Origin: a virus
Lineage: Duplodnaviria; Caudoviricetes
Direction: 5' to 3' (one strand)
Length of the DNA stretch: 25,896 nt
IMG/VR virus record: IMGVR_UViG_3300049182_000102
Location: 1 to 25,896 of that record
Shown here: positions 1-24,460 of the stretch, in pieces
How positions within the stretch are numbered: the stretch's first letter is position 1
Layout of the letters: the number at the start of each line of letters is the position of its first letter
Notes under the pieces: model-generated
Seen by the model: only the letters and a program-made list of their open reading frames with translations
Told to the model about the DNA's origin: nothing
The model's database searches: none
Program-made: the position numbers and the translations under genes

Positions 1-848
1 GCAGTACCGTTGAGCACAAGTGCGCCATTAGCAGCAGCTAAGATTGCTCCAGTGCTTGCAGCAGCAGGGCTGGAAATTTGAGCAGACGTACTTGTCGCCA
101 TGCTCAGACCCATGATATTGAAGTTTGCCGTTGCAAGACCGCTGGCGGGCAAAGTGATGCCCATTTCGGAAATGACGCAATCGCGGTACAGTTCGGACTG
201 TGCAATATCCGAATAGATATGCTCAATCAGATAGTAGTCACGCGTCTGGCCTGTTTGAGGAACGTAAGTGTGTTTGCCAGTGGATGTCAACGTGACAGTG
301 TTGGTAGTTTCGCTGCTAGTTGCCCAAGTACCACCATCCAAACGCAAGACGTTCAAAGTCTTGCCGTTCGAAGCAATGCCTGTAATAAGCAGATTGGTGG
401 AGTTGTTGCCGCTCGTTGTGAAACCATTAGAACCAGTACCAGCACGAATCACCATGCCTGGACGGAAGCCAGACGTGACAAAGTTGCCTGCTGTGCAAAC
501 AATCGTACCTGCAGGGCCTGTGCCTGCTACAGCATCATAGTCACCTGCGGCAGCAGTTGCAGTCACAGCCGTTTGTGCAGCCTGACGGCAAATCGATTCC
601 ATAAAGTTCTGGTAGCCACCAACGGAAAGCTCACCGTTAATAGAACCATCGACGCTAACCACACCATGGCGGAAGTCAGAGACTTGCTGCGACGGACGAA
701 TTTCGTTCGACTGGTAAGTGGCCTTCTTAAAGTCCACGTTGGAAGTGACGCGACGCAAATATTTTGCGCCTGTCGGGCTGCCGTACGTGGCAAGTGCAGT
801 CTGTTTTGCAATTGCCAGTTTTTTGTTTACGCCTGTTGCGATAGTCAT
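1..848 (-). CDS. Major tail (tail tube) protein, truncated at the left window edge
   Basis: Not in the ORF track because it has no stop in the window. ATG at 848 follows an AGGAG SD. Translates MTIATGVNKKLAIAKQT...LRRVTSNVDFKKATYQSNEIRPSQQVSDFRHG...GSINGELS, the S-x-E-I-R..D-F-R-H-G pattern of siphovirus tail tube proteins. Lies directly after the tail terminator. Confidence 0.85.
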   Translation of the reverse strand, partial: MTIATGVNKKLAIAKQTALATYGSPTGAKYLRRVTSNVDFKKATYQSNEIRPSQQVSDFRHGVVSVDGSINGELSVGGYQNFMESICRQAAQTAVTATAAAGDYDAVAGTGPAGTIVCTAGNFVTSGFRPGMVIRAGTGSNGFTTSGNNSTNLLITGIASNGKTLNVLRLDGGTWATSSETTNTVTLTSTGKHTYVPQTGQTRDYYLIEHIYSDIAQSELYRDCVISEMGITLPASGLATANFNIMGLSMATSTSAQISSPAAASTGAILAAANGALVLNGT

Positions 849-856
849 GATAACTC

Positions 857-1489
857 CTAATTAAAAATGTCTGCGTAGTAAGAAACCCTGACCGGAAGCT
901 GGTAAGCTTCGTCGTCAATCATTGCAGGTCGAATTTCAGGGGTCTTAATAATGTTTACTGTCACACCGCCATTACTGAACGACGAACCCCTTGGGAACGT
1001 CTGCCTAATCAACTCAGCTCTTGTGAAGGCATCGCCTGTACCGAGCTGAAGAGGATAAACCAAAGTTATTTGAAAAATTCCTACTTCTCGATAAAACCCA
1101 TCACCCATAGTTGGGTTCTCAGGAGTTGCAGGCAACAAATTGATTTTCTGGTAAGGGACGCGATTTGCTGCCGTTGGGAAGTACATATTTTCCCAAGCTA
1201 TCAATTCTGCAATGACGGTTCCACCTGTTCCGTTGCTGACTACTTCAGTTCCTGTTACAGGGTCATCCAATAAAAAAGTAGTGCTTGTTGGGACATCCGA
1301 AACGATATAAGTCCCGTTAGCCCCGCCTGTGTGGTTAGAAACAGTTGCTTGTAATCCTACGACCAAATTGTGCGGAGCAGAAGTTGTAAAGACGTCGCTA
1401 ACCGAAGAGACAATTGTAGCTGCCGGAATGATGCCAGGCATGCTATTAAGCGCAGACTCCAATGCAGATCTAATCTTAACCAGAGACAT
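857..1489 (-). CDS. Tail terminator-like protein (DUF4128-like) with an inserted beta-rich domain
   Basis: IRSALE..., IAWEN..F.P, G.FQITLVYP...G....RAE.I...F.RG and PVRVSY motifs; position just before the tail tube gene. Confidence 0.75.
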   Translation of the reverse strand: MSLVKIRSALESALNSMPGIIPAATIVSSVSDVFTTSAPHNLVVGLQATVSNHTGGANGTYIVSDVPTSTTFLLDDPVTGTEVVSNGTGGTVIAELIAWENMYFPTAANRVPYQKINLLPATPENPTMGDGFYREVGIFQITLVYPLQLGTGDAFTRAELIRQTFPRGSSFSNGGVTVNIIKTPEIRPAMIDDEAYQLPVRVSYYADIFN

Positions 1490-1952
1490 TTCCGCTCCTA
1501 ACCCTAGCTGCTACTTCTTCTGCAATCTGAGTGAACTCTGCAACAGTAAGCCCAACCATGCCGTGAGGGGCTTGCTTAGACCATCCGTATTCCAAAGCTC
1601 GAGCGTAAGGCAAATTGTTCACAAAGTAATACGTGTGACCTACTTGCCAACGTCCAAGGTGGCTAAGACGTTCTAGCGAACCGTGTCCTGTAGCATCTAC
1701 CGTTGGGATCGTTCCCGTTGGAATCTTATCAATACCAACTTGCCAATTGTTAATAAAGTGACCGGGTACATATCCTTTAGGCCAATACGGCTTTTTCCAA
1801 GTTGTCGGATCACCTACAGGCGATCTAAGCACTAATCTACGACCAACTTCTAACAAACATTCTTTTGTAAGCTGCTGAATCCTAGCTTTGCCTTTTTCAG
1901 CAAAGCGAAACATATCAGATACAGCTTTAGCATTTATAGAATGCGTGTCCAC
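1476..1952 (-). CDS. HK97 gp10-like neck/tail-completion protein
   Basis: RSPVG...GHFINNWQVG...YFVNNLPYARALEYGWSKQAPHGMV motifs. The GTG start overlaps the upstream TAG. Confidence 0.8.
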   Translation of the reverse strand: MDTHSINAKAVSDMFRFAEKGKARIQQLTKECLLEVGRRLVLRSPVGDPTTWKKPYWPKGYVPGHFINNWQVGIDKIPTGTIPTVDATGHGSLERLSHLGRWQVGHTYYFVNNLPYARALEYGWSKQAPHGMVGLTVAEFTQIAEEVAARVRSGNVSG

Positions 1953-2353
1953 TATGCACGTAAGACCAAAAGATACAACAAATCTGTTCCACCAGGACTA
2001 ATTGCCTGGACATCGTAAATCTTGTACTGCACGCTACCCAAAAGCACAAAGTCTTGAATGCGTGGAGCATCACCATTTGCGTCCATATACATCCACTTAT
2101 TGTGATCTTGGATTAGCGTATTTGTCTTAAAGTTTTCACCGTATTCCGGGCCAATGCGCTTTCCAGGAGCATCAACAACCACGGCATAACGCGTTGTGTC
2201 TTGTTGAGAGGTTTGAGCGTTTGCTACAGCTTTACCTGTACTTGGGTCGTACTTATTGCCACCTCCTGGCGTATAGCGGCGCAAGGTGACAGGTCGCCCG
2301 AATCTTTTCAAAAGATCCAGGGCCCTAGCCGCTATATCAGAGTAAAAGCTCAT
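1952..2353 (-). CDS. Head-closure / head-tail joining protein
   Basis: A..LL.RFG.PVTLR...YDP.TG N-terminus and I.PGG..LLY.L.LR C-terminus; neck-module position. Confidence 0.7.
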   Translation of the reverse strand: MSFYSDIAARALDLLKRFGRPVTLRRYTPGGGNKYDPSTGKAVANAQTSQQDTTRYAVVVDAPGKRIGPEYGENFKTNTLIQDHNKWMYMDANGDAPRIQDFVLLGSVQYKIYDVQAISPGGTDLLYLLVLRA

Positions 2354-2896
2354 TTAGCATCTTCCCAAACGCACACAAGGACCAGCTGAAGCTAAGAATG
2401 GTCGCACCATATTCTCTACTTGAACATACTCCGTTTGCTGCGGAGAATCTTTATCATAGACAATAGTAATTGGCCCAACTGTCTCGCTAACGATACCTTG
2501 GGTCTGGTCCTTGACTAATGCTTGAATATTAGCACGTAAAGCAAGTTCAGCGCAAGCATTTTTTATTTCTGTTGGGACTGTTGTGTAATCAAGCTGGTAA
2601 AGGCCATACGAACCTCTAAGCTGTGGCCCAAGTGCGCCAGCAATATCGTCAATAACCACACCAATGCGCGGCCAGTCAAGTGCTTGAGTCGGTTTGACGC
2701 GAGCACCTTTCCAAGCATTGCGATAGCGACCAACCATGAACTGAGTAGCTCGACGCAAGTAAGCTTCTTTATCAACAGTTTGAATAGACGACCAAGTATG
2801 ATTGCCCATATTGGTGTGATAAGTATCTGCATCCGCAACGCTAATGTAAGACTCGGAATTAGACATTGCGCTACCATCTTCAACAATGATTGTCAT
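2354..2896 (-). CDS. Head-tail adaptor (family often labelled DnaT-like)
   Basis: MTIIVEDGS...NSESYISVADADTY...L.RAT...WKG.R...QALDWPR...VP.EIK.A..ELA...ETVGPI...Y. Start moved to ATG 2896 (GGAG upstream). Confidence 0.8.
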   Translation of the reverse strand: MTIIVEDGSAMSNSESYISVADADTYHTNMGNHTWSSIQTVDKEAYLRRATQFMVGRYRNAWKGARVKPTQALDWPRIGVVIDDIAGALGPQLRGSYGLYQLDYTTVPTEIKNACAELALRANIQALVKDQTQGIVSETVGPITIVYDKDSPQQTEYVQVENMVRPFLASAGPCVRLGRC

Positions 2897-2897
2897 T

Positions 2898-3209
2898 TTA
2901 ACGCTCCACAATATTAACAAAGAAAGTACGATCGTCGATACGTCCGCCCGTTGTGGTTATGCGAACTGTAACACTTCCAGTCAATCCTGCTGTACCACCA
3001 CCAAGCCATAATGTCACGGATGTGGAAGTAACTGTTGCGGAAGTTGGCTGGGTTAAACCGGAAGATCCGTCTAAAACAACTACTGCACTTGCGATAGTAT
3101 CGCTAATTGGTGCAAGATAATTTGTCCAATCTGTCGTGTAATCCAGGACAGCATTTGGGTCTTTATCAATATACCAAGCATTTCCGCGGGCTGAAAAAGT
3201 ATCAGACAT
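2898..3209 (-). CDS. Small Ig-like virion protein (fibre adaptor-like)
   Basis: KDPNAVLDY..DW...V.LWL.GG..G....VT.RITT..GR.DDRT motif, recalled from fibre-associated phage proteins; GAGG SD. Confidence 0.6.
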   Translation of the reverse strand: MSDTFSARGNAWYIDKDPNAVLDYTTDWTNYLAPISDTIASAVVVLDGSSGLTQPTSATVTSTSVTLWLGGGTAGLTGSVTVRITTTGGRIDDRTFFVNIVER

Positions 3210-4255: not shown

Positions 4256-6271
4256 TTAAGTTATTGAAAGATCATCAAACCAACCGTTAAGATTTGTCGC
4301 AGTTGTAGAGTAAGCATAACCAAATAACTCAATTACACCGTCCTCTGTTGGAGTAATTGTCAAAGAAATTTGTTGCCAAGTATTTGCTGAAGCACTTACT
4401 GTCGCAGTCATATCACTTGAAACTCCAGCAATTTGCCCTCCGCGAATCTTTATGCCAACTGTTATATTTGTGCTATCCCGTCTTGCATATACATTGATTG
4501 TCTTAGATACATTTGCAGCCATTAAAAGATTTGCCAATACAAATTCGCACTGTGGATTGTCCACACTAAGGGCTGTACTTAACGGCGATAGTTTCCAAGA
4601 AAAATCTGAAGCAGTGTTCCTTACACTTGTATCACTTTTAATCTGATAAGATGCATTAATAAGGCGGTGATCAGTTGCGCTTCCTCCGTACTTATGGATA
4701 CGAAGAGTGTCACAGAGCGTTCCGCTACTTTCAATCGGTGTTGTTGAACTTAAAGTACAATTGTATAAAGTCGTTCCTTTTCCACCACTTGAAACAACTA
4801 TATCAGCCGTCACGTTATTGGCAAGGGTTGTATTGTAGTATGTCGTCTCACCGGCAGAATCAGAGCTTGTAGCAATTCCATATCCAGCGTTATTGTCAAT
4901 CTTGTCAATATTTGCATCTACTCGAGCTCCTGAAACACAAGGTAATGCACAAGCCAGACCGCCAGTGCCACCAAGAATTCCTGAAATTCTTCTAGCAGTA
5001 AGTTTAACTCTTTGAAGAGCTGTAGCTGCTGGAACAACTAAACCGGCTCCACAAGACATTACATTTCCTAAATCCAGAACAAGAGATGTTCCAGCATTAA
5101 AAGTTAAAGAAGAACATGCTGCAACACCTGTCAAAGAAATATTACAATTGACATTTGAAGAAGTCACTGTTATAGGCGCCCCGTTAGCATGAGCTACTCC
5201 AACCTTTTCAATTTTAATGTAGTCCTGCCCGTTTAAATCAATAGCTGCACCAGCCCAATAAGAACATGTCAACCAAGAGACACCGGATTGCGTGCTCATG
5301 TTTGTACGATCCCAACCTCCAGAAAAAGTAATAGGACTTCCGTTTGTCCCACTATCTTGGACAGTTCGACTTGAACTTTGGAATTGAGGTGAGCTTCCTC
5401 CGTAATTCACTCCATCGATAGGTTGAATTTTATATGTTGTGACACTTTCACTTGTACCTGAATAAGTCCTAGGAGTAAGCGAAGCAGAATTTAAATCTGT
5501 ACTTTGGCTATTTCCCAAAGTTACAGATGTTCCATTAATTCCTAAAACAGGATACCATTCAGGTTCTCCAACTGTGTTTTTACCAATCAAAGATAAATGA
5601 GTTAAAGAAGCTGCATTGCTAGACGCTTTACAAGCAATGATGTTATCAAGCAAAAACGTCCCTGCACCAAAATCGGAAATTACATATAGCGCTACAGACT
5701 TAATAGAGCTATTTAAATTTGAACCAAAATCCTTAGTGACCACAGTCCAGCCGGAGTTGAAGGCCCTGTCTATTGTAATTGCATGTGCAGAGGTAGCACC
5801 AGAAGTATCTGTGCAAAGACGAAGCTCAAGTGCTCCTGCTGGGACGTTATCAATACTTGAATTAATCCAAAAGCTAACTTGTTGATACCCTGAAAGATCT
5901 AATGTCCCAGTGGCTTTAAATGCCGCTTTCCCTGTGGTAAAAGTCGAACCAATGGCAATGCTTGCAGAATTTGTGCCTTCTTTATGACTTACACTTGTCG
6001 TTGTTGTAATATTTGTAGATGCAGTCCAAGCACTTTCACCGTTATCGATTGTCTGTGTGCAAGCCGCAGCAAGAGTAATTGTGCTACTTGAATTCGTCCA
6101 AGTAGCACTTCCAAGAGATGATGCATCTGGAGAAGCTATAATACGAACAATATCACCAGGAGCAATTCTAGCTGCTGTAGCTCCGCCCGCAATGGTTTTC
6201 CAACGATTTGCAAATGTTGTACCATCGTTGGCGTCGTTTCCACCAATTGGATCTAAAAAGAAATTACTCAC
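4256..6271 (-). CDS. Large beta-rich virion protein, putative receptor-binding/appendage protein
   Basis: 671 aa. N-terminal FFLDPIGGNDANDG...RWKTI motif typical of beta-helix proteins; jelly-roll-like segments ending ...FLLDNI and ...WFDDLSIT. Confidence 0.6.
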   Translation of the reverse strand: MSNFFLDPIGGNDANDGTTFANRWKTIAGGATAARIAPGDIVRIIASPDASSLGSATWTNSSSTITLAAACTQTIDNGESAWTASTNITTTTSVSHKEGTNSASIAIGSTFTTGKAAFKATGTLDLSGYQQVSFWINSSIDNVPAGALELRLCTDTSGATSAHAITIDRAFNSGWTVVTKDFGSNLNSSIKSVALYVISDFGAGTFLLDNIIACKASSNAASLTHLSLIGKNTVGEPEWYPVLGINGTSVTLGNSQSTDLNSASLTPRTYSGTSESVTTYKIQPIDGVNYGGSSPQFQSSSRTVQDSGTNGSPITFSGGWDRTNMSTQSGVSWLTCSYWAGAAIDLNGQDYIKIEKVGVAHANGAPITVTSSNVNCNISLTGVAACSSLTFNAGTSLVLDLGNVMSCGAGLVVPAATALQRVKLTARRISGILGGTGGLACALPCVSGARVDANIDKIDNNAGYGIATSSDSAGETTYYNTTLANNVTADIVVSSGGKGTTLYNCTLSSTTPIESSGTLCDTLRIHKYGGSATDHRLINASYQIKSDTSVRNTASDFSWKLSPLSTALSVDNPQCEFVLANLLMAANVSKTINVYARRDSTNITVGIKIRGGQIAGVSSDMTATVSASANTWQQISLTITPTEDGVIELFGYAYSTTATNLNGWFDDLSIT

Positions 6272-6788: not shown

Positions 6789-8045
6789 TTAGCCCAGCAG
6801 GATGGCGCAATGGTTAGGCTTGATGCCCTTGCAACCCCAAGCTGCCGAGATTTCGTACTGCATTTGGCGGTATTGAGCGTACATTGCAACTTCGAACGCG
6901 ATACCGGAACGCGGATCAACGATCATAGTACGGTCAACTGCCATGTCGCCACCTTCCGGCAGAGCAGGAGCACGAGTTGCCAGAATCAGCGAAGATTGGC
7001 TGAAAGCAACGTTCGGAGTGAAGTTACCACCGACAGTCACCGCAGTTGCGGAAGTCGGGATAGCTTGGCGCAGACCAGGAGCACCGATCGTTACAACACC
7101 GCCGGACAGGGCACCAGTCACAACGTACTTGTTGCTATCACCGTTGAAGGTAATGATGTCACCTGCCAGGATAGTGCCGCTACCAGTGATCAGCGTGATT
7201 GCGGTTGCACCCACTGCATAACCTGCAGTGTTCGTCGTATAAGACGTGCCAGTGCCCTTGGTGACAGCAGTCACTTGAGCCGACTCGTGGAACGACATAC
7301 CGTGGATGTTCAGCAGCTCACCGTCACGCAGAGTCATGGTGGTGCCAGCTTCGTTTGCTTTGGTCAGTTGACCCAAAGTACGCATCGCGGCGCCTGCAGT
7401 GGTGTCGATAACCACACAACGATCGGATGGCGGAGCGCCGTTATCGTCCAGGATCTTGCGGATCTGGGCCGGGTCAGCCAGGTTGGTTGCGAAAGGCGTA
7501 GTACCAGCAGTGCCGTATGCACGCGATGCAGCAACGCGAGCAGCAGTAACGACATCCGATTCCATTTCGTTCACAAGAGTGCGGATAGCTTGTTGGAGCT
7601 GCGCATTCTTGATAGGACGAGCACCGGAACCGTTGTTGTTCAGACCCAGCTCTTCTTCACCGTTCCAACGGAAAGGAACACGACGCGACTTGGTGATGGT
7701 CAGACCCACGTTACCGATCGTTTGGTCACCATCGTTCGGCGGCGTGACACCAGGAGTGATATCAGTAGCAGCAGCGGATGGAGTGATGAACGACGTAACC
7801 GTTTGACCTACAGCGGCGCGACTAACCGACGCATCCAGTGTTGCGCAAGGAATGGCGCCAACCAGTTCACGAGACACAATATCCAGCGCTTCGTAAAGCG
7901 AAGGAATCAGAGAGGTCAGGGTGTTTGCACCAAGCATCAGGCCATTACGGGCCATCCAATTGGTGAGGCGCACCTGTTCGATGTACAGAATGGCCAAAGC
8001 AAAAAGCTTGACCTGCGCAAAAACATTTTTCAAAACAGATTTCAT
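6789..8045 (-). CDS. Major capsid protein, P22 coat-protein-like, with N-terminal extension
   Basis: ANTLTSLIPSLYEALDIVSRELVG...QAIRTLVNEME...RKILDDNGAP...YAQYRQ..YEISAAWG. High-expression codon bias, GGAG SD before ATG 8045, downstream terminator. Confidence 0.9.
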   Translation of the reverse strand: MKSVLKNVFAQVKLFALAILYIEQVRLTNWMARNGLMLGANTLTSLIPSLYEALDIVSRELVGAIPCATLDASVSRAAVGQTVTSFITPSAAATDITPGVTPPNDGDQTIGNVGLTITKSRRVPFRWNGEEELGLNNNGSGARPIKNAQLQQAIRTLVNEMESDVVTAARVAASRAYGTAGTTPFATNLADPAQIRKILDDNGAPPSDRCVVIDTTAGAAMRTLGQLTKANEAGTTMTLRDGELLNIHGMSFHESAQVTAVTKGTGTSYTTNTAGYAVGATAITLITGSGTILAGDIITFNGDSNKYVVTGALSGGVVTIGAPGLRQAIPTSATAVTVGGNFTPNVAFSQSSLILATRAPALPEGGDMAVDRTMIVDPRSGIAFEVAMYAQYRQMQYEISAAWGCKGIKPNHCAILLG

Positions 8046-8060: not shown

Positions 8061-8849
8061 TTAATCGACGATCCTAATTCCGCTTCGGGCAACTTCAGCT
8101 TGTTTAAGCATTGGAAGTGCTTCGTAGTCGGAACGCTTAATGGTTTTACCTGAGGCATTGCTGCCACTTTGTCGAGCGTTGCTACTACCAGAACCCGAAG
8201 TGTTCGACGGGAACCAGTGAGGCTTCTTTTCCTTCTGCTGCTCGATCCACTCAGCAGGGCTAAATGGTGTTTTACCATTTTTGCCAAGTTCTGGATTGCC
8301 CTCGGCGTCCAGTTGTACTGCATTACCTTGATCATCCAAGGTAAAGATTTGACGTGCATGCAGGAGTGCGTCATCAACGGCTCCAGGATGCAAGTCTTTG
8401 CAAGCTGCCCTGATGTGGTTATCCAGAACAGCTTGTTGGTAACGCTTCGCACGTTCTTCAGCAGCAGCGATTTTCTGCTCGAAAGTCTTCAGTTCGTTCT
8501 GATGAGCTTCGCGCATACGTTCGGTGTACTTCTGAATTACCGATTCCTTCTTTCCTTCTGCAAACAACTTTGCATCTTCATCCTGATCCAAACGGCTTTG
8601 AAGTTCGGACAGCTTAACTGGATCCATTCCTTCAAAAGGCTTCAGCTTATCTTTCAGCTGACGTTGAATACCAAGCAGTTCATCGTTTTTCGATTTCAGA
8701 CCTTTGGTCGCTTCGGCAACGGCTGCGGCAATTTTTGCTTCAAGAGTTTCACCGCCTTGACCACCTTCACCGCCTTCACCGCCTTCACCTTCAAAGACAT
8801 ACAGGACAGTAGAAGAATGGTTTACTTGATATTGATTACGAAGTTGCAT
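8061..8849 (-). CDS. Capsid scaffolding protein
   Basis: Gly/Glu linker, GLKSKNDELL coiled coil, PHWFP..SGSGS tail; directly upstream of the capsid gene. Confidence 0.85.
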   Translation of the reverse strand: MQLRNQYQVNHSSTVLYVFEGEGGEGGEGGQGGETLEAKIAAAVAEATKGLKSKNDELLGIQRQLKDKLKPFEGMDPVKLSELQSRLDQDEDAKLFAEGKKESVIQKYTERMREAHQNELKTFEQKIAAAEERAKRYQQAVLDNHIRAACKDLHPGAVDDALLHARQIFTLDDQGNAVQLDAEGNPELGKNGKTPFSPAEWIEQQKEKKPHWFPSNTSGSGSSNARQSGSNASGKTIKRSDYEALPMLKQAEVARSGIRIVD

Positions 8850-10996: not shown

Positions 10997-12436
10997 TTAA
11001 ACTCCGCTAATTCTTGGTCGGTGAACTATATGATCTGCCGCAAGTACGCGATACCTTGTATCGTCTGCTGCATGGTCTTCTGCATCTGTATCTACATCAT
11101 CTGGATCTTTTTGATCACGTGGAATCGGTGGAACTGTACGGATCCAATCTCGGCAATTATTGAAGACATACAGGCCAGGCTTTTCCTCGTCATTAACCAC
11201 ACTAGCAAGGCGGTCGCGCATCAGCTCCCAACCATTCTTTCTGCTACCAGGCTTCTTATCGGCAGGTGTCCAAAATACACCTTCAGATTCCATGTTTTGA
11301 CCGATCGACGCTTCATCTGTAACTGCATAGATAGCAGAGTCAGCTGGACCGCTATTGACACGGTTTTCAATACCCATTTGACGTTCACGCGACAGGATGC
11401 CAATAGCAACCTGTTTTGCCGTCATGTAGCATCCTTGGTTAGGCTTACCATCAGACCCGTACCACTCTCCAATTCGGAATAATGTCTTAGGCGGAAACAC
11501 TCGTGTAGTTCCGTCCGCCATAACTGCCTCTGTCCCGTCAGACTGAGCCCACCAACCGACACTGAAAGGCTTACTTGAGCCCCAGTCAAAGGAACGGTCA
11601 ATCTTCCAACTGCTTGGGATCTTAAATGGCCGCAGGATGTGTTTATTTGCGTCCCAAAGATCATCGAACATACCACCGGATGTAATGTCCCAAGATCCTT
11701 CAAGCCACGCTTTGCGCTTGTTGGGATCTGTGATCGACTGGAGCGTCTTAACGTACTCTTCACCAAGGTAAGGGTTTTCTTTGATCGAACCAAAGAGGCA
11801 AACTCTTTTGTTTCCATCGGCATCCGTGATAATGTTCCCATAGGGCGCAGGATCAATAAAGTAGTTCTTAACCCAATTGTGTCCAACACCGTAAGGATTT
11901 GTGCTAGACCTAATTAAGCGAGGAATATCAGGTAAGTATGCATGTGGCTGAAAAGAAGATCGGTTGCAAGACTTCATTGATTCATAGCAAGCAATCGAAG
12001 CCCAACTTGTCAATTCTTCCCATCCAATAAAAGGATACTCATGGCCGTGGTAGCTCCAATAATCCTCTTCGTCTTCAAAAGCACGTAGCAGTAATTCTTC
12101 TCCGGTCGGCCACACCCATTTAAGCGAAGAATTTCCGGCAAGAAAGCGAGGCTTTTGTGCTGAACGATTAAACCAGCGCTTCGACTTAGAGATAATGTCA
12201 TCCAAGTGCTTGTAATTTCGTCGAAAAATAACGCCCCGCCAGTAGTCGCCATAACCCCTCCCGCAATATTGCGCAAAGGACATCAACATGCTGTCTGTCT
12301 TTCCAGGTCCACGAGTACCGGCAAAACAAACTTCTCTAATTGGGCTCTGAAGAAATAAGCTCTGGCTTCCAGGCAAAGCTTGCCACAAAGGCTTCGCAAT
12401 CCTTTGTGGTAGTTTATTGACTGGACGTACTAGCAT
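10997..12436 (-). CDS. terL: Terminase large subunit
   Basis: Walker A GTRGPGKT, Walker B FIGWEE, coupling motif STNP, RNase H-like nuclease SFDWG...EDHAADDTRY. Confidence 0.95.
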   Translation of the reverse strand: MLVRPVNKLPQRIAKPLWQALPGSQSLFLQSPIREVCFAGTRGPGKTDSMLMSFAQYCGRGYGDYWRGVIFRRNYKHLDDIISKSKRWFNRSAQKPRFLAGNSSLKWVWPTGEELLLRAFEDEEDYWSYHGHEYPFIGWEELTSWASIACYESMKSCNRSSFQPHAYLPDIPRLIRSSTNPYGVGHNWVKNYFIDPAPYGNIITDADGNKRVCLFGSIKENPYLGEEYVKTLQSITDPNKRKAWLEGSWDITSGGMFDDLWDANKHILRPFKIPSSWKIDRSFDWGSSKPFSVGWWAQSDGTEAVMADGTTRVFPPKTLFRIGEWYGSDGKPNQGCYMTAKQVAIGILSRERQMGIENRVNSGPADSAIYAVTDEASIGQNMESEGVFWTPADKKPGSRKNGWELMRDRLASVVNDEEKPGLYVFNNCRDWIRTVPPIPRDQKDPDDVDTDAEDHAADDTRYRVLAADHIVHRPRISGV

Positions 12437-12438: not shown

Positions 12439-12981
12439 TTAATTAATACTCGGAGGTGTGGGCATGACATTAACCACACCAGAGGTGAGTTCTTCTTGTT
12501 GCTTCTTGGCGGCAGCAGCCCACTGCTCAGGCGTCATAACACCAGGCACAACAAAGGCGCCTTCCAATTCGTTTTCAATAGGATCTTTAGTTTTGTCTTT
12601 TGGATCCATACCCATCAAGTTTGCAAGACGAGAAAGTGCAGCAACACGCGCAGCCTGGGAGGAGCCAGGACCACGATAATTCGCTTCGCGCTTTAAACCT
12701 GCTATAATACGTTTCTTTTCTGCTTCTGGATCATCTGCATCTAAACTGGTACTTCCTTCTCGTTTAGCAATCTCGCGTAAGACATACGGTTCGTTCATAA
12801 ATCTGCGGCCGTATTCCTTTGCATACGCCTTGCCATAGCCTACTCGAGTAGCGGCAGCAGTTTCGTCGTAATCAACTAAATATTCTTGGACAAAGAAATC
12901 TCGTAATGCTTTTTCCCGATATGAATAGACACGCTCTTCTTCAGGTTCCATAATGGGCTGATCATCCTGGATGTCGCTCAT
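12439..12981 (-). CDS. terS: Terminase small subunit
   Basis: FVQEYLVDYDETAAATRVGY HTH-type motif and RVAAL..L..L.GM; directly upstream of terL. Start placed at ATG 12981 (GAGGG SD). Confidence 0.85.
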   Translation of the reverse strand: MSDIQDDQPIMEPEEERVYSYREKALRDFFVQEYLVDYDETAAATRVGYGKAYAKEYGRRFMNEPYVLREIAKREGSTSLDADDPEAEKKRIIAGLKREANYRGPGSSQAARVAALSRLANLMGMDPKDKTKDPIENELEGAFVVPGVMTPEQWAAAAKKQQEELTSGVVNVMPTPPSIN

Positions 12982-14502: not shown

Positions 14503-14813
14503 CAAGTCCTCTTTGCTTTGGTTGGATGCTTGCAATTAGGACTGGATCGCTCCCACTTGTCTTTTGCTTTAGCAGCTCTTTTTGTTTGCCACTGCATATT
14601 TGAAGGGTCGTCCTTACCTCCACAATCGAGCGGAGTAATGTGGTCAATTACATATCCAGGACAGGTTATCTTTTTTAGACCGGTCGACGGACAAGGAAAT
14701 GCATGGACAAAAGCAGACCTCGCTTTATAACTGCGCGTCGTTGCATCTGCTGTAAAGGTCAATGCAGCCAAAGATACAACCGAGATATAAAACAACAGTC
14801 TGCTTTTCATCAT
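14502..14813 (-). CDS. HNH-motif protein with N-terminal signal peptide
   Basis: Signal-like MMKSRLLFYISVVSLAALTFTADA, then PCPSTG...CPGYVIDHITPLDCGGKDDPSNMQWQ; AGGAG SD. Confidence 0.8.
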   Translation of the reverse strand: MMKSRLLFYISVVSLAALTFTADATTRSYKARSAFVHAFPCPSTGLKKITCPGYVIDHITPLDCGGKDDPSNMQWQTKRAAKAKDKWERSSPNCKHPTKAKRT

Positions 14814-15863: not shown

Positions 15864-16160
15864 CTAAGGCTTTTCATTTTTAACGATAGTTACCTTACCA
15901 CCTGGATGGCGCAATGCAGGCATAGGTTTGCCATCAATGTAAGTAATAATTGGCTTCGGATATCTCAAAACGCGGCTGACACCAGCTACTTCCGGTCCCG
16001 CTGCACCAACGTCCGATAACCACACTCGTAGCGTGCGGCGGGCGACGCGGCGAGCTTCACGTCGTTCATCGTGGCTCATAGCGACGATACCTAGACTGAT
16101 TCGAATTGCTTCAACAACTTCCGGTGTAGCAATATATTGTTTTTTGATTTCTTCACTCAT
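15864..16160 (-). CDS. Hypothetical basic protein
   Basis: 98-aa ORF in operon orientation with an Arg-rich middle. Confidence 0.6.
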   Translation of the reverse strand: MSEEIKKQYIATPEVVEAIRISLGIVAMSHDERREARRVARRTLRVWLSDVGAAGPEVAGVSRVLRYPKPIITYIDGKPMPALRHPGGKVTIVKNEKP

Positions 16161-16896: not shown

Positions 16897-17096
16897 AACT
16901 GGCCTCTGTATTCGCAGATGTAAAATTCAGGTGGTTCTCCAACCCTTTCAGCTATTGTATAAGTCCAATCTGTAGAAACAAGTTCGAAAACAATAGCTTC
17001 CAGCATGGAGCGCGTTTGCTGCCACCTAGGCAGCTTATTAAAAGCTTCCCGCACTTTATCTTGCAATGCGCAAGCTCTTTTGTAATTAGGATCCAT
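16893..17096 (-). CDS. Hypothetical protein
   Basis: 67 aa, translationally coupled on both sides. Confidence 0.6.
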   Translation of the reverse strand: MDPNYKRACALQDKVREAFNKLPRWQQTRSMLEAIVFELVSTDWTYTIAERVGEPPEFYICEYRGQL

Positions 17097-17539
17097 TAGA
17101 AATCAACTTTAAAAGTTGGCAAGGTAGGACGTGTAAGAAATTTAGGTGTCCAACGAAGCATTGGATTTTCAAACCGCTTGAAACTTGAAAACCGATAGTC
17201 ATCTTTTTCAGCTAACCTTTCGTAAAGCGGAATAAGACAATCGTCCAACCATTCAAGACGCAACTCTATACGCCTTCGAACAACATTCCTAAATTTATAA
17301 TGGACGTATTCGTCCAAATAAGAATAAGGATTTAGCATCAACATTATTGTCTTTTTTATATCTTCTACAATGAAGCGTTGAAACCCGTAAAAGTGATAAG
17401 CTTTATCCAAAGCTGAACAGACGTAATTGCTTTCTCTTCTTTCAATTATCTGACGAGCAGCCTTCAAAGCGTCCACATGTTTTTGAGTCACAAGGTAAAC
17501 TTCAATGTAATAGACATTTTCATGCAAAGGATTAAACAT
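17096..17539 (-). CDS. Hypothetical protein
   Basis: 147 aa; GGAG SD; L..AR..I......YVC.AL and R.EWLD motifs. Confidence 0.65.
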   Translation of the reverse strand: MFNPLHENVYYIEVYLVTQKHVDALKAARQIIERRESNYVCSALDKAYHFYGFQRFIVEDIKKTIMLMLNPYSYLDEYVHYKFRNVVRRRIELRLEWLDDCLIPLYERLAEKDDYRFSSFKRFENPMLRWTPKFLTRPTLPTFKVDF

Positions 17540-18089: not shown

Positions 18090-18347
18090 TTAAGGAAATT
18101 GTTTACCCAATTTATCTTTCAACTTCTGCACATCCTTAGGATGACAGATAATAGTGCGTTCCAGTTTTAAGAAAAACACTTGACCTTCAGGCACTACGCA
18201 AGCATACCCAAAGAAATCTGCCATCCATGCATTAATTTCAGCACGAAATTCCGGTGTAACAGGAACCTTCTCAGATAACTGCATCTTAGGATACGTCTGG
18301 CCCGCGACAATTGAGTAGCCGTTTAAGACGAACGGTGGATTAAACAT
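18090..18347 (-). CDS. Hypothetical protein
   Basis: 85 aa; PKMQLS..VPVTPEFRAEINAWM..FFG. Confidence 0.7.
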   Translation of the reverse strand: MFNPPFVLNGYSIVAGQTYPKMQLSEKVPVTPEFRAEINAWMADFFGYACVVPEGQVFFLKLERTIICHPKDVQKLKDKLGKQFP

Positions 18348-18352: not shown

Positions 18353-18562
18353 TTAAATGGTTGGTGAACGGCCTGGACGGTAAGGAATGTTAAGTGGCAA
18401 ATCTTGATGACCACACTGCATGCAGGTGAAGCCAACGCACCTCCATCCGTTCGGGTATTTGGTGCGGTGCTGGATGCTATAGTAAGTCTGCTCCATAATC
18501 AAGAAGAAATCTTGTGCCAATGGTTTGCGACAATAGTGGCAATTAGGTGCTTGTGTTGTCAT
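18353..18562 (-). CDS. Small zinc-ribbon protein
   Basis: MTTQAPNCHYC...CMQC, the 3' part of ORF 18353..18739. Confidence 0.55.
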   Translation of the reverse strand: MTTQAPNCHYCRKPLAQDFFLIMEQTYYSIQHRTKYPNGWRCVGFTCMQCGHQDLPLNIPYRPGRSPTI

Positions 18563-18642
18563 TTTTGTTTTGTGATCATGCAGCCAAATGCAAATCCAGT
18601 CCAGAATAGGGCCTGTACAGCTAGAAATATAAAGGTTGCCAT
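18559..18642 (-). CDS. 27-aa hydrophobic peptide (not in ORF track)
   Basis: MATFIFLAVQALFWTGFAFGCMITKQK; TAATG overlap upstream and ATGA overlap downstream. Confidence 0.5.
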   Translation of the reverse strand: MATFIFLAVQALFWTGFAFGCMITKQK

Positions 18643-19517
18643 TATTTATTCTCAAGATAAGCAAGCGGCTTAATTGTAAAGCCTTGTTTCTCCCACTTAT
18701 CTGCTTCTTCCTTACTGAATGTAGCATGCATCTCGCCACCGCACTTATAGGCCCATGCTACCGGAACTTTCGCTGCCTCTACCTGCTGCGCTGGTGCTTG
18801 CTCAGCCTGCTCTTTTAAAGCTTTGATCTCATCCTGCAAGTTGGTGGTAAACAATGCAATATCGTCTTCCCACTTACCGGAATCAGACTTGCAATTCATA
18901 CCAATAGCTTTACAATGGCTATAGAGCCACGATAGCTCTTTTGGAGGTAAGTGTTTTGCTTCAGGTTTAATCACTGTGGATACAGCGGATGTTGAGCGTC
19001 CATAGTTAAGACCGTTGAACCAAGCACCGCGCAAAGCGCCTCCAGGCTGCATGTCAGCAGGAGTGGAAGGTGTTTCTGCATAACTCTTATAGGCTGCTTC
19101 GTCCGCGCTTTGTTCATTCAACTTCAAAGCACCTTCAAAGTCGCCAGCGTTTACACAACGATTAATTGCCTTATCCAGTTGGTGTTGCGTAGGATAGCAC
19201 GGTTCGGAAAGTTCACATTCAGCTTTACCGCACACTTTGCACAGTCCAAGAACATGTTTGGCTGTCATATTCCTATTACACATATTAAATTCGGTGCAAT
19301 AATTAGGTGTATCGCAACCGGAGCATAGTTCAACGTTTGCTGAAAATTTTTGTCCAACTCGCGGCTGTGTGGTTATCTCACCTGTCTTTACATTAAGACG
19401 AACGCGAGTTGCACCACGGATCTCAACTGTATCAGGCGGCAAGTTGGGATCAACTGTGATTTGGAGTCCACCGAAGAAGCTGTGAGGTGGTATTTTAATT
19501 GAGTAAGCCTTGTCCAT
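18642..19517 (-). CDS. Hypothetical mosaic protein with Cys clusters
   Basis: 291 aa; CSGC, CKVC and C-terminal PVAW...IKPL motif. Confidence 0.7.
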   Translation of the reverse strand: MDKAYSIKIPPHSFFGGLQITVDPNLPPDTVEIRGATRVRLNVKTGEITTQPRVGQKFSANVELCSGCDTPNYCTEFNMCNRNMTAKHVLGLCKVCGKAECELSEPCYPTQHQLDKAINRCVNAGDFEGALKLNEQSADEAAYKSYAETPSTPADMQPGGALRGAWFNGLNYGRSTSAVSTVIKPEAKHLPPKELSWLYSHCKAIGMNCKSDSGKWEDDIALFTTNLQDEIKALKEQAEQAPAQQVEAAKVPVAWAYKCGGEMHATFSKEEADKWEKQGFTIKPLAYLENK

Positions 19518-20221
19518 TATTCACCTTTCAATTGCTTAAAGATGTTTTCTTCGATCTTGCGCACAATTTGGACTGCTTGGGCAAACGTTATTTCATAGTT
19601 GCCATTGTAGTTGAAGCAATTGCTTTTGAACAAAAAGAGAATATTGTTCTCATTCATCGGTTTGGAAGCTGCAAGCTTAATCTGTTCAGCTAATGGGTCA
19701 GCTTGCTTTGACTTAATTTCGTTTGTCAAGTCGCAAATTTGCTTTGACAAAGCATCTCTCATGTCCAGGATGTCGTGTGTAAGAGAGGTTAGGGTTGTTC
19801 GCCTGCTTTCTTCAATCCTTGTAACAAGATCGTTATGCACGCTGTGGATAACATGTCGAACTTCATTTGAAGTTGTATAGTCAGGTATCGAGCGAGTTGC
19901 AATACGAGCTTGGTCTTGGGCGTCTTGTTGCTTTTGGGCACGAAGGGCCTTGGGTGTCTTATTAACCACACTCACCAATGCCTTCATGTCGAAGTCGGTT
20001 GGTTGAATATGCTGTTCGTAAACATTGGTATGTACCGGCGTACCTTGCATCACACCGTTGTTGTTAAAGAAGCGATGAACTTCTGCAACGCGGATGCTGT
20101 AAGAGACAAGTTTGTAATTGCCATTAGGTTGTGGTGTTGGAGACTTTTGAGTTTCGTCAGTGATTCGACGGCTGTTTTCATCAGGTGTAATTTTAATGTT
20201 TGGCTTGTAGATGTTGTCCAT
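19517..20221 (-). CDS. Hypothetical protein
   Basis: 234 aa; AAGGAG SD; helical C-terminal half. Confidence 0.7.
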   Translation of the reverse strand: MDNIYKPNIKITPDENSRRITDETQKSPTPQPNGNYKLVSYSIRVAEVHRFFNNNGVMQGTPVHTNVYEQHIQPTDFDMKALVSVVNKTPKALRAQKQQDAQDQARIATRSIPDYTTSNEVRHVIHSVHNDLVTRIEESRRTTLTSLTHDILDMRDALSKQICDLTNEIKSKQADPLAEQIKLAASKPMNENNILFLFKSNCFNYNGNYEITFAQAVQIVRKIEENIFKQLKGE

Positions 20222-20446: not shown

Positions 20447-20647
20447 TTATAGTTCCTCTACTTTGTAGGCGTAAACGTTGTGGTCTTTGAGACGTTGGGA
20501 CACAGGGAGTCGTACTTTGGTGATACGGTAGGACGGGAGAGGCAAGGGATTGCAGATAACCACACTATCGTTGAGTGTTGGTACAAGGTCGGTGAATTTG
20601 AGGATCTCTTGGCGGGTGTATGTACCAAGTTTGATGGTGATTAGCAT
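20447..20647 (-). CDS. Hypothetical protein, first gene of the left arm
   Basis: 66 aa; AAGGA upstream. Confidence 0.55.
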   Translation of the reverse strand: MLITIKLGTYTRQEILKFTDLVPTLNDSVVICNPLPLPSYRITKVRLPVSQRLKDHNVYAYKVEEL

Positions 20648-20721
20648 GTCTTACATTCCTTGGACAGGAGTTATTAAAACTTATCCTTGAGGTATAAGGT
20701 TTGGGTATTGCTGTAGGGTAT

Positions 20722-20750
20722 ATTATGCGCTGGAAAATTGTCTGTTGCAA
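20722..20750 (-). promoter_or_regulatory. Leftward sigma70-like promoter
   Basis: Minus strand TTGCAA-N17-CATAAT at the head of the left arm. Confidence 0.55.
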
Positions 20751-20839
20751 TAGAAATGTTGCATCTATTATGATTTGTTGGTGAGTAGATATTATAGGGT
20801 TGTATAAGTTGGGACATGATAGGTGATTTTAAAATTTAT

Positions 20840-20853
20840 GGGGGGGGGGGGGG
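20840..20853 (+). repeat. G14 homopolymer
   Basis: 14 consecutive G in the divergent intergenic region. Confidence 0.9.
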
Positions 20854-21024
20854 TAGGTATTAAAATAGAGGCTATAAGTTTTGCTCGGGCTCTTTATGAT
20901 AGCTGATGGGCAGAGGTGGAAAAGGTCGCTACGGTAGGCCGCGCTTACCTTAGAACAATGGCTTTGAGGCAATTCATTTACGCCCAGAAACATAAACATT
21001 ACCTGCCAGCAAGATGCATACAGT

Positions 21025-21053
21025 TTGCGCAAACGCAAACGCGATGCTATACT
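21025..21053 (+). promoter_or_regulatory. Rightward sigma70-like early promoter
   Basis: TTGCGC-N17-TATACT with an extended -10 TG. The -35 lies inside the palindrome GTTTGCG-CAAA-CGCAAAC. Confidence 0.7.
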
Positions 21054-21162
21054 ATACGCTATACTGTAGTTAAGCAGTAAGCAGTAGCAGTAAGTAACAG
21101 CAGCAAGTAGTAGCAGTACCGTAAAGCAACATTACCTTAACCCAACTTACATAGGTGCAATT

Positions 21163-21636
21163 ATGGCAAAGCAGCAAAACCAACAAGCTAACAACGTTAG
21201 CAACGAGCAAGTAGTTACCGCAGCACAAACCTTGCGTGCGCGCAGGGTAGCAGCAGTGCAACAAGCATTGTATGCACAACGCATTGCAGCAAAGCAAGCT
21301 AAGTACACTGCAGCAGTAGCAGCATATAATGACGCACAGCAAAAGCTTGCACAGCAGGCAGCATTTAATGCAGCAGTTGCTGAGCTGCATGCTAAGTTTG
21401 GTATTGCAGTACAACCCGTTGCACCGCGTGCTAACAGTGCTACTACTGCACCTAGTGCAAGCGCAATAAACGTAAATGGTGTGTTGCTTAAGCCGGTAGC
21501 AGCAGTGCATGCTATTTGCGCAGCTAACCCCAACGCTACACGCAAGCAAGTTATTGCAGCATGCATACAAGCTGGTATTAACCCTGCTACGGCTGCAACG
21601 CAATACGGTGTATACAAGCAAAAGCATGCACAGTAG
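21163..21636 (+). CDS. Ala/Gln-rich basic protein (coiled coil plus small helical, possibly DNA-binding, domain) encoded almost without GA/TC
   Basis: 157 aa; TAGGTG SD; upstream promoter; TAG-TAA stops; C-terminal KPVAAVHAIC...RKQVIAACIQAGINPATAATQY. Confidence 0.8.
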   Translation: MAKQQNQQANNVSNEQVVTAAQTLRARRVAAVQQALYAQRIAAKQAKYTAAVAAYNDAQQKLAQQAAFNAAVAELHAKFGIAVQPVAPRANSATTAPSASAINVNGVLLKPVAAVHAICAANPNATRKQVIAACIQAGINPATAATQYGVYKQKHAQ

Positions 21637-21652
21637 TAATGTGTAACGTATA

Positions 21653-21719
21653 GCACTAGCATACACTGCTAGTGCGTACGTATAAGCATGCTATACTGTA
21701 GTGTGCTTATACGTAGCAC
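21653..21719. other. Tandem hairpins downstream of the 157-aa gene
   Basis: GCACTAGCA/TGCTAGTGC (21653-21675) and TACGTATAAGCA/TGCTTATACGTA (21677-21715). Confidence 0.75.
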
Positions 21720-21748
21720 GTAGTAACCACTTAACTAGGAGGACAATA

Positions 21749-21952: not shown

Positions 21953-22150
21953 ATGAGCAACACTACGAACAACGACGATCTGTACGCAAGCGACACAATA
22001 CCAGATAGCGAGACAGTAACTATTGCCTTCCGTGTACCGAAAGAACTTCGTACTAAATTCAACGAATTGTGCGAATCACGAAACGTTGAAGTTTCCAAAG
22101 TGCTCCGTCGCTTTATCGAGCGCGAAATTAAGGCTGCTCAACAAAGCTGA
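21953..22150 (+). CDS. Ribbon-helix-helix (CopG/Arc-like) DNA-binding protein
   Basis: TVTIAFRVPKELRTKFNELC....VSKVLRRFI pattern. Confidence 0.85.
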   Translation: MSNTTNNDDLYASDTIPDSETVTIAFRVPKELRTKFNELCESRNVEVSKVLRRFIEREIKAAQQS

Positions 22151-22189
22151 TAACCACACTACAGCGGCACTTGCCGCGGAGGAATAATC

Positions 22190-22558: not shown

Positions 22559-22567
22559 GGAACTATC

Positions 22568-23247: not shown

Positions 23248-23390
23248 TGTTTGCGCTAACGCAAACCGTTAGCGCTAGATGTGCTATACAGTAAAGCTTG
23301 CAGTACCAGCTAAACAAAATCACCAGTGTTAGCATCTATCCGGGTGCTAACGCGGGTAATTTCGCCCGGCAACCTGTTAAGGAGTGACAA

Positions 23391-23774
23391 ATGATCAATA
23401 CTCGTACCGATGCTATCAACTTCCTCAAGTCCCAAGATGGTTTCAATGAGGCCATGGCGAAAGTTATCGTGAATGAGTGCTTCAACCTCGCACCCAACAC
23501 GGACAATGATGACAAAATGCGTCATCCCGACGGCACCATCGTGCAGATGGAAGAAAAAGAACTGCGCGAACTCTACGAGCACATGATTCTCGAAGAGATT
23601 GATGTCGAAGGTGACTACATCACCGTGCTGGACGAGCGCAAGTACAACCTCAACGGCGACATTGCGTTAATGCCCACACTCGAGCCTGAGCCTGTCGCAG
23701 CTGAGGGTGCAACTGGAACTGCTGAGCAGCCTGCAGCAACTGATGGTGCAGAAAAGAAAGAAAATTATGAATAA
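23391..23774 (+). CDS. Highly acidic protein
   Basis: TAAGGAG SD; about 29 D/E versus 11 K/R in 127 aa (hand count); high-expression codons. Confidence 0.8.
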   Translation: MINTRTDAINFLKSQDGFNEAMAKVIVNECFNLAPNTDNDDKMRHPDGTIVQMEEKELRELYEHMILEEIDVEGDYITVLDERKYNLNGDIALMPTLEPEPVAAEGATGTAEQPAATDGAEKKENYE

Positions 23775-23979
23775 CAAACTTGAAACAACTGATCTGGCAG
23801 CGCTTGTTGCTGGTCATATGAGCAAAGATCAATTGTTGAAATTGATTCGCGCACTTGAAGAAACAAGTGAACCAATTAGCGTTCAGACAGCAGGTGTCCT
23901 TTCTGATAATGCTAATCGCGAAGCAATTCGATTGCTCAAAGATGGCTTCTACAGTTGGACCGGCGAGCACTTGGAATAA
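23767..23979 (+). CDS. Hypothetical protein
   Basis: Start MNNKLETT overlaps the end of the previous gene. Confidence 0.65.
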   Translation: MNNKLETTDLAALVAGHMSKDQLLKLIRALEETSEPISVQTAGVLSDNANREAIRLLKDGFYSWTGEHLE

Positions 23980-24033
23980 TCACACTACGGCGTCGCTTGC
24001 TCTGCAGGTGGCGCCTACTTTAGGAGATTTATC

Positions 24034-24198
24034 ATGTCCAAAGAATACCAACTTGGTCTGCAACACGCTCTTGAAGGGACTTCGTTTATGAAGAACCAGA
24101 CACGCTATACGACACTGCGTGACCAAATCGAATACAACCACGGTTACATCGCCGGTCTGAGGAAGAAATTCGGGTTCGTGAAAAGAGCTGCAGTATGA
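24034..24198 (+). CDS. 54-aa hypothetical protein (not in ORF track)
   Basis: TAGGAG SD; MSKEYQLGLQHALEGTSFMKNQTRYTTLRDQIEYNHGYIAGLRKKFGFVKRAAV. Confidence 0.7.
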   Translation: MSKEYQLGLQHALEGTSFMKNQTRYTTLRDQIEYNHGYIAGLRKKFGFVKRAAV

Positions 24199-24255
24199 TG
24201 ACCACACTAATGCTCGGCTTCCACTACGTTCCTAACTATTTGTAGGAGATTGACG

Positions 24256-24447
24256 ATGAAAAAGCTAATTTTGATAGGTTGGTTAGCTGGATTTGCTGTG
24301 TATTTGCATCTGAAAGATGGGAAGCAAACTCAGGATGTAAATAAAGTCGTGAAGGAGCCTGTAAAAGAAGAAAAAGAAGAGTGCAAGTATGCGGAGATAC
24401 ATGCACCACCATACAAAAGTGTCGGTGACAGATGTAAAGGAGAATAA
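24256..24447 (+). CDS. Small protein with N-terminal signal/anchor
   Basis: TAGGAG SD; MKKLILIGWLAGFAVYL...; two C-terminal Cys. Confidence 0.65.
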   Translation: MKKLILIGWLAGFAVYLHLKDGKQTQDVNKVVKEPVKEEKEECKYAEIHAPPYKSVGDRCKGE

Positions 24448-24460
24448 CCACACTACACAA

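What the first reader, a model, noticed from the sequence alone, without database searches (positions are those of the whole stretch)
656..24453. Strand-biased dispersed 9-mer TAACCACAC, embedded even in core structural genes
Seen: at least 12 exact copies, where a naive uniform model expects about 0.2 on both strands of 26 kb. Ten are on the plus strand in both arms, so orientation follows the chromosome rather than transcription. Copies sit inside the tail tube, adaptor, capsid, terL and terS genes, mostly as GTG-GTT Val-Val. Near copies: 18408, 21696-21709 (reverse, TAAGCACACTACAG), 23977, 24199, 25707. Established analogies are Chi and KOPS polar motifs and mycobacteriophage stoperators. 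Inference: a genome-wide binding or polarity signal for a phage or host protein acting in recombination, packaging/ejection, or repression.
Basis: partly seen in the sequence, partly recalled or inferred. Interest (0 to 1): 0.7.

Follow-up and report, generated by a model that had tools for sequence, protein, structure and literature searches.

The report
Evenly spaced phage primase start signal
This phage, many related phages and some small elements integrated in bacterial chromosomes carry one eight-letter DNA word spread along both strands, and the word is likely the start signal their own primase needs to begin copying DNA.

Summary
In detail: 12 exact copies against 0.1-0.3 expected under Markov nulls, and 10 in genes against 0.35 under a codon-preserving null. 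The 9-mer is the local form of 5'-TGTGG(T/G/C)(C/T)A-3', with 21 copies here, 14:7 by strand.

The window is a fragment of a Queuovirinae-like siphovirus. The word, or one overlapping it, is the top non-homopolymer 8-mer in 25 of 25 related genomes (9g, Seurat, NP1, PA73 and others). It lies on both strands and is more evenly spaced than chance on 35 of 50 strands. The strand bias is only about 1.5:1 and partly follows coding direction.

The word tracks an NrS-1-like primase domain, not terminase, DpdA, ligase, PolB, Cas4 or the RHH/157-aa proteins. Integrated elements sharing only that domain carry it inside their att boundaries (157 versus 25 sites in equal lengths), and the GGCA variant follows the domain's subclade. 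Thirteen of those 28 elements show no enrichment.

Most likely it is an extended GTG-core priming site; no biochemistry exists and this contig lacks the primase gene. I did not find it in print. This scan reached the same reading earlier on other DNA (e1-122260, e1-6321195).

The parts
656..663 (-). TGTGGTTA site in tail gene 3..848 (Val-Val)
1330..1337 (+). TGTGGTTA site in tail terminator gene
2653..2660 (-). TGTGGTTA site in head-tail adaptor Ad1 (Val-Val)
2952..2959 (+).
5737..5744 (-).
7409..7416 (-). TGTGGTTA site in major capsid gene (Val-Val)
8414..8421 (+).
11194..11201 (-). TGTGGTTA site in terL (residue 412); the same position is used in 4 of 27 relatives
12457..12464 (+).
12471..12478 (-). 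TGTGGTTA site in terS (Val-Val)
14639..14646 (+).
16017..16024 (-). TGTGGTTA site in 98-aa ORF (Val-Trp-Leu frame)
18408..18415 (-). TGTGGTCA site between ORFs 18090..18347 and 18642..19517
19368..19375 (+). TGTGGTTA site in 291-aa ORF
19963..19970 (-). TGTGGTTA site in 234-aa ORF (Val-Val)
20557..20564 (-). TGTGGTTA site in 66-aa ORF (Val-Val)
22151..22158 (-). TGTGGTTA site directly after the stop codon of the RHH-like ORF 21953..22150
23671..23678 (-).
24199..24206 (-). TGTGGTCA site directly after the stop codon of ORF 24034..24198
24445..24452 (-). TGTGGTTA site whose complement begins with the TAA stop of ORF 24256..24447
25264..25271 (+).
10997..12436 (-). terL, used to find relatives (66-85% identical in the 27 closest IMG/VR loci). 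The inferred reader, the primase-helicase gene, is not on this contig but is in the close relatives G001-G004 that cover that region.

Best explanation
The repeat is the 8-base word 5'-TGTGG(T/G/C)(C/T)A-3', kept on both strands of this phage group, and it is likely the template site at which the phage's own NrS-1-like primase-helicase starts primers. Shown: enrichment at the DNA level, both strands, even spacing, site turnover, and co-distribution with the primase's N-terminal catalytic plus helix-bundle domain. Inferred from NrS-1 and pRN1 enzymes: GTG is the uncopied core read on single-stranded DNA, the pyrimidine just 5' of it templates the first purine nucleotide, and the four bases 3' of GTG add specificity. 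Flanking host DNA carries such a word only about once per 11 kb on both strands together. Selection would therefore write sites into genes at 1-3 kb intervals (Okazaki-fragment scale) on the richer strand. Sites on both strands with no switch point would mean either strand can serve as lagging template. Why the site is so long (avoiding host DNA, setting fragment length) is untested.
For: (1) It is the top non-homopolymer 8-mer, or overlaps it, in 25 of 25 related genomes (exact word in 22). It is enriched at p<=0.01 in 76 of 80 viral loci found through this primase (some loci are near-duplicates). (2) The relatives' 787-848-aa primase hits NrS-1 N300 (7rr3, 6k9a; E about 5e-10) and 7ola (1e-16). 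It matches the Pfam NrS-1 HBD (above cut-off in 2 of 4) and keeps the DxD, H and E motif residues. (3) NrS-1 polymerase primes best at GTGG/GTGA and also at TTTGGTTA, one base from TGTGGTTA (PMC8718748). pRN1 primase starts opposite the base 5' of GTG (PMC2034472). (4) Single changes at positions 1-5 and 8 abolish enrichment (O/E <=1.4 against 8.5-13). The one clear exception, G011, switched position 1 from T to C, the other pyrimidine (CGTGGTCA 14/26, regularly spaced). (5) Integrated elements with the primase homolog but no PolB, clamp, SF2 helicase, Cas4, SSB or ligase hit: 157 sites in 278 kb inside att repeats versus 25 in 278 kb outside, backwards control 23 versus 40 (28 of 67 loci had an att pair). 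The primase N-domain is the only protein all 11 tested motif-positive elements share with the phages, and the variant matches the best-hit primase in 10 of 11 (tree). (6) Present without DpdA (Siara, PA73, R3, RcSpartan, Loki), without the ligase and with a different terL. Absent in Ab18 (shared terL), AchV4 and RcPacific (shared PolB), and H40/1 (Cas4 44%, SSB 43%, different Prim-Pol family). (7) More distant primases go with other GTGG words: Erebus CTGTGGA and RHEph05 CTGTGG[AT], both evenly spaced; BP63 CTTGTGGG. (8) Spacing is more even than random on 35 of 50 strands, while positions turn over among relatives.
Against: No enzyme of this clade has been assayed, and the contig does not contain the primase gene. 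13 of the 28 att-bounded elements have 3 or fewer sites although their primase motif residues look intact, and no substitute word was found for 18 low-count elements. NrS-1, phi105, PSA, T25 and VWB have homologous primases but no dispersed word, and NrS-1 holds TTTGGTTA only once. The Sasha/BU9 word CCCGTGG is regular on only one strand. Spacing in elements is significant on only 4 of 18 strands. L357 carries TCA sites but its best hit is a GGCA-type primase. Known HBD primases need only 3-4 bases. A lagging-strand signal would normally be one-sided or switch at an origin, and this does neither. The Erebus mosaic argument holds for PolB (p-AU 0.029) but not for the SF2 helicase (0.37). Genomes and elements are related, so counts are not independent.
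Confidence: 0.74

Rival explanations
1. The same primase-helicase reads the word, but as a loading, pausing or fork-restart mark rather than as the routine primer start.
For: All co-distribution results point to the protein, not to the reaction. Sites on both strands with no switch point fit restart; PMC8718748 proposes GTG sites for restart.
Against: Elements fuse the N-domain to a different helicase (AAA_25 in L390, L363, L350, L387) and keep the word, so the priming half is the shared part. The T-to-C switch at the predicted first-nucleotide position fits priming.
Confidence: 0.14
2. A Chi-like signal that stops or redirects the phage's Cas4-like exonuclease and SF2 helicase during recombination.
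For: Both genes sit beside the primase in most motif-positive phages. A GT-rich, evenly spaced word on both strands suits end resection. The SF2 tree does not reject a motif-positive clade (p-AU 0.37).
Against: Motif-positive integrated elements have no Cas4 or SF2 hit. H40/1 has Cas4 (44%) and SF2 (31%) and no word.
Confidence: 0.04
3. A packaging, ejection or virion-nick signal, or a stoperator-like repressor site read by the RHH or 157-aa protein.
For: Copies lie in structural genes; several sit between a stop codon and the next ribosome-binding site or hairpin; the richer strand is the structural sense strand in 25 of 25 genomes.
Against: Independent of terL type. RHH and 157-aa homologs are missing from most motif-positive genomes. 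Operator-like words in terL relatives G012, G014 and G015 are clustered (CV up to 2.6), not even. The complement begins with TAA or TGA, which may explain reuse of stop codons.
Confidence: 0.05
4. A site for a host factor, or a mutational by-product.
For: None specific.
Against: The same word occurs in phages of Escherichia, Pseudomonas, Vibrio, Sphingomonas, Stenotrophomonas and Klebsiella at 35-59% GC. Host DNA flanking the elements has 0.09 sites per kb. Codon-preserving null rejected.
Confidence: 0.03

Closest known systems
Phage NrS-1 primase-polymerase recognition sites, 5'-GTGG/GTGA-3' and 5'-TTTGGTTA-3' (PMC8718748, passages read)
   Same: Homologous catalytic and helix-bundle domains; the word contains GTGG and differs from TTTGGTTA by one base.
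   Different: NrS-1 needs 3-4 bases and its genome has no dispersed word (TTTGGTTA once; its top word is a cluster at 17062-17370). Here six positions are fixed, the word is spread genome-wide, the helicase half differs (DUF3987) and relatives carry a separate PolB and clamp.
Plasmid pRN1 ORF904 primase site 5'-GTG-3' (PMC2034472, PMC8076596, passages read)
   Same: Uncopied GTG core with the primer starting opposite the base 5' of it; T at that position fits an ATP start.
   Different: Archaeal plasmid enzyme of Pfam PF09250 with a three-base site; no genome-wide spacing was seen in the passages read.
T7 gp4 / DnaG primase sites (GTC, CTG; named in PMC2034472)
   Same: Dispersed template words for lagging-strand priming; TGTGGTCA contains GTC.
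   Different: DnaG-type enzymes; none was found among the 84 relatives' ORFs scanned. The GGCA, GCCA and GTTA variants lack GTC.
Chi and KOPS polar motifs; mycobacteriophage stoperators (recalled, no call)
   Same: Short dispersed asymmetric words inside genes.
   Different: Weak polarity (1.5:1) with no switch point, even spacing, and tied to a primase domain rather than a nuclease, translocase or repressor.

Membership tests
AEP/helix-bundle primase recognition site (NrS-1, pRN1 type) | Cognate AEP primase with helix-bundle domain encoded by the replicon | tested here: met
   In relatives G001-G005 and 14 cultured phages; not on the window's own fragment.
AEP/helix-bundle primase recognition site (NrS-1, pRN1 type) | Invariant GTG core on one strand | tested here: met
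   Changes at positions 2-4 give O/E 0.5-1.4 against 8.5-13.
AEP/helix-bundle primase recognition site (NrS-1, pRN1 type) | Base 5' of GTG templates the first nucleotide | tested here: inconclusive
   T fixed, with C in G011; consistent with a purine start, not shown.
AEP/helix-bundle primase recognition site (NrS-1, pRN1 type) | Sequence-dependent primer synthesis on single-stranded DNA | not testable with these tools
   Needs purified enzyme.
AEP/helix-bundle primase recognition site (NrS-1, pRN1 type) | Word travels with the primase domain | tested here: inconclusive
   Strong overall (157 vs 25; variant concordant in 10 of 11), but 13 of 28 elements and five phages with more distant primases show no enrichment.
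Chi/KOPS-type polar motif | Strong strand polarity tied to replication direction | tested here: not met
   767:492 overall, 267:234 in opposite-strand genes, no switch point.
Chi/KOPS-type polar motif | Requires the cognate nuclease/translocase | tested here: not met
   Word present in elements without Cas4/SF2 hits and absent in H40/1, which has them.
Stoperator/operator array | Cognate repressor co-occurs and sites are oriented with transcription | tested here: not met
   RHH hits in 3 of 45 other genomes; sites on both strands of genes.
Iteron origin | Clustered direct repeats at one locus | tested here: not met
   Sites are under-dispersed genome-wide, unlike the NrS-1 cluster.
Queuovirinae-like phage group (identity of the genome) | Shared terL/portal plus PolB, clamp, primase-helicase and deazaguanine genes | tested here: inconclusive
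   Close uncultured relatives have the module; cultured matches are only about 50% in terL; no formal taxonomy test was run.

The most novel reading that the evidence does not exclude
A clade of phage and satellite primases has evolved an 8-base, self-specific start code. The enzyme primes almost only its own replicon, the genome sets its own Okazaki-fragment map by writing sites into genes on both strands, and swapping the primase domain rewrites the word (TGTGGTYA, TGTGGGCA, CGTGGTCA, CTGTGGA). Primase specificity could then be read from genome sequence, and satellites sharing a helper's word could borrow or compete for its primase.
Probability: 0.45. Interest if true: 0.8.

Novelty: new variant of a known kind. 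Interest (0 to 1): 0.62.

Why it matters
The word marks well-studied cultured phages (9g, Seurat, NP1, PA73, Loki), and 258 phage records carry a near full-length homolog of the primase. I did not find the word in print. If it is the priming site, these phages offer a ready system for testing how priming-site spacing sets lagging-strand synthesis and why both strands need sites. It would also show how a helix-bundle domain extends specificity from 3 to 8 bases. Practically, recoding or inserting long site-free DNA in these phages could impair replication, and a site-specific primase could be a useful reagent.

Tried and rejected
Codon-pair bias: rejected.

Terminase, DpdA, ligase or PolB as reader: rejected by presence/absence. 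RHH and 157-aa proteins: rejected as universal readers (tblastn could miss short distant homologs).

I expected NrS-1's own genome to be rich in TTTGGTTA; it has one copy.

Fourfold-site skew follows coding sense in both gene directions, so it gave no fork direction.

A single-sequence AlphaFold model of the primase N-domain was unusable (pLDDT 37), so no fold search was run.

No residue clearly explains the word variants (inspected by eye only). A pooled search for a substitute word in 18 low-count elements found none (L395 dropped for a short ORF).

A scan with an alignment of distant primases could not run, so distant primase families are thinly sampled.

The -3/+7 kb element window (228 vs 51 sites) was chosen after seeing the data; the att-bounded count replaces it.

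Literature searches found no description of the word. Text searches of PMC10484667 and PMC7472734 found no TGTGG or CCACA. Supplements were not read, and subscription papers, including Zhu et al. 2017, are outside the library.
Full report
Observation. The window holds 12 exact TAACCACAC, 10 on + and 2 on -. Markov models of order 1-4 expect 0.11-0.32. Shuffling synonymous codons across 42 ORFs gives a mean of 0.35 (maximum 4 in 2000 rounds) against 10 observed in genes. Seven of the ten coding copies are GTG-GTT Val-Val and three use other frames or the other strand, so the signal is in the DNA. The window is the whole record: a siphovirus fragment with tail, connector, capsid, portal and terminase genes and small unknown ORFs, but no replication module.

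The real unit. TerL found 80 IMG/VR loci, 27 of them 66-85% identical. Word counts there and in whole records showed the unit is 5'-TGTGG(T/G/C)(C/T)A-3'; the extra G is a preference of this clade (66% at position -1). In 25 of 25 related genomes (window, G001-G010 and 14 cultured phages) the top non-homopolymer 8-mer is this word (22) or overlaps it (3). Ten cultured phages have 23-62 TGTGGTYA against 0-11 for the backwards control. The four 41-44-kb phages have 0-1 and use TGTGGGCA instead. Pooled over 21 genomes, any change at positions 1-5 or 8 drops observed/expected to 1.4 or less, against 13.1 and 8.5 for the two main words. The window has 21 sites, 14 on - and 7 on +.

Strands, spacing, turnover. 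Both strands carry sites throughout, with no switch point. The structural-gene sense strand is richer in 25 of 25 genomes (MiCath oriented by its primase). The ratio is 426:232 in genes of that direction, 267:234 (p 0.15) in opposite genes and 74:26 between genes, so chromosome polarity and coding direction both contribute. Gaps are more even than random on 22 of 25 richer and 13 of 25 poorer strands (p<0.05), with mean gaps of 1.1-2.9 kb on the richer strand in 22 genomes. For three of the 42-kb phages a looser word gives 2.4-3.1 kb. Positions turn over: terL has ten different site positions among 28 homologs and the window's is shared by four, although one portal position is kept in 11 of 27.

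Which protein. Close relatives carry a 9g-like module: primase-helicase, PolB, clamp, SF2 helicase, Cas4-like exonuclease, SSB, ligase and deazaguanine genes (84 ORFs scanned). The primase resembles NrS-1 polymerase and keeps its motif residues. The word persists without DpdA, without ligase and with other terminases. It is absent from Ab18 (same terL family), AchV4 and RcPacific (PolB homologs) and H40/1 (Cas4 44%, SSB 43%, but a PF09250-type primase). Of 80 viral loci found with the primase, 76 are enriched at p<=0.01. The one with no excess, G011, uses CGTGGTCA, 14/26 and regularly spaced. Erebus and RHEph05 sit among motif-positive phages in the PolB tree (monophyly rejected, p-AU 0.029) but outside them in the primase tree (support 92), and use evenly spaced CTGTGGA or CTGTGG[AT]; the same test on SF2 was not significant (0.37). 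This is a single lineage.

The sharpest test. A GTDB scan returned 80 loci; 55 matched only the primase's N-terminal domain. The five annotated are 8-9-kb elements with an integrase at tRNA genes, four of them with the domain fused to an AAA_25 helicase. Of 67 loci lacking the other replication genes, 28 had a flanking att repeat. These hold 157 sites in 278 kb inside and 25 in 278 kb outside; the backwards control gives 23 and 40. Fourteen elements have 6-15 sites, one has 5 and thirteen have 3 or fewer. In 11 motif-positive elements the primase domain was the only protein shared by all with the phages. The five GGCA-type elements hit PA73 best and five of six TYA-type elements hit NP1 best, and four GGCA elements group with PA73 and R3 at 97%. 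The low-count elements keep intact-looking primases and remain unexplained, as does the lack of a dispersed word in NrS-1, phi105, PSA, T25 and VWB.

Mechanism. NrS-1 polymerase primes best at GTGG/GTGA and also at TTTGGTTA, starting one base 5' of the site (PMC8718748; abstract start and passages). pRN1 primase starts opposite the base 5' of an uncopied GTG (PMC2034472 and PMC8076596; passages). Read that way, T-GTG-GYYA gives an A-started primer, G011's C a G-started one, and four downstream bases add specificity. Selection then has to plant and space the sites. These steps are inferred by homology and co-distribution; no enzyme of this clade was assayed, and the window's own primase is inferred from relatives. 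Confidence 0.74, with 0.14 for a non-priming use by the same protein.

Novelty. Six literature searches found no description, nor did text searches of two genome papers (PMC10484667, PMC7472734; passages). PMC12205980 (passages) concerns another primase, and PMC9371898 was seen only as a listing. Supplements and subscription papers were not seen. This scan reached the same reading for TGCCCACA and CTGTGGGCA on other genomes. My hypothesis was noted before that look-up, and those notes are not independent evidence. The short notes shown did not mention the element-confinement test or the C variant. Verdict: real, a new variant of a known kind of site, directly testable in cultured phages; interest 0.62.

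Noticed in passing
window 21000-21730: Only 5 GA and 0 TC dinucleotides in 731 bp (window median 34 per 300 bp), covering the 157-aa Ala/Gln-rich ORF and its upstream region. Similar holes occur in G002, G004, G010 and PBPA162. GA is the strict DpdA target in phage iggy (PMC10484667 abstract), so this gene may be kept free of deazaguanine; untested.
   Followed up: partly
window 22151, 23977, 24445, 25707, 21701-21709: Right-arm copies and near copies share a longer CACACTAC, and several are followed by a hairpin or a ribosome-binding site. CCACACTA is 7:0 by strand here and its complement 15:1 in G001, far more one-sided than the core word.
   Followed up: partly
window 3646, 24719, 24831: The 12-mer GGGTAGTACCTA occurs three times, twice in the AT-rich non-coding stretch 24460-24990.
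   Followed up: no
window 20650-21160: Non-coding divergence point between the two gene directions, with a long G run near 20841-20854 and strong local GC skew; a candidate genome end or control region.
   Followed up: no
L333, L350, L360, L363, L372, L387, L390 and others: A family of roughly 8-12-kb elements integrated at tRNA genes in Proteobacteria, with an integrase and an NrS-1-like primase fused to AAA_25 or DUF3987 helicases; satellite-like, not classified here.
   Followed up: partly
G012, G013, G014, G015, Ab18, Siara: Other over-represented words: clustered GTCCGATAA, ACTCTACCT and TGGGAGTCA (operator-like); TGGCCCTA in G013; CCTGGGC in G014, Ab18 and Siara, evenly spaced on one strand of G014 only.
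   Followed up: no
L129:17062-17370 (phage NrS-1): Eleven copies of AGTGTAAC in both orientations just after the primase gene; a likely iteron origin.
   Followed up: no
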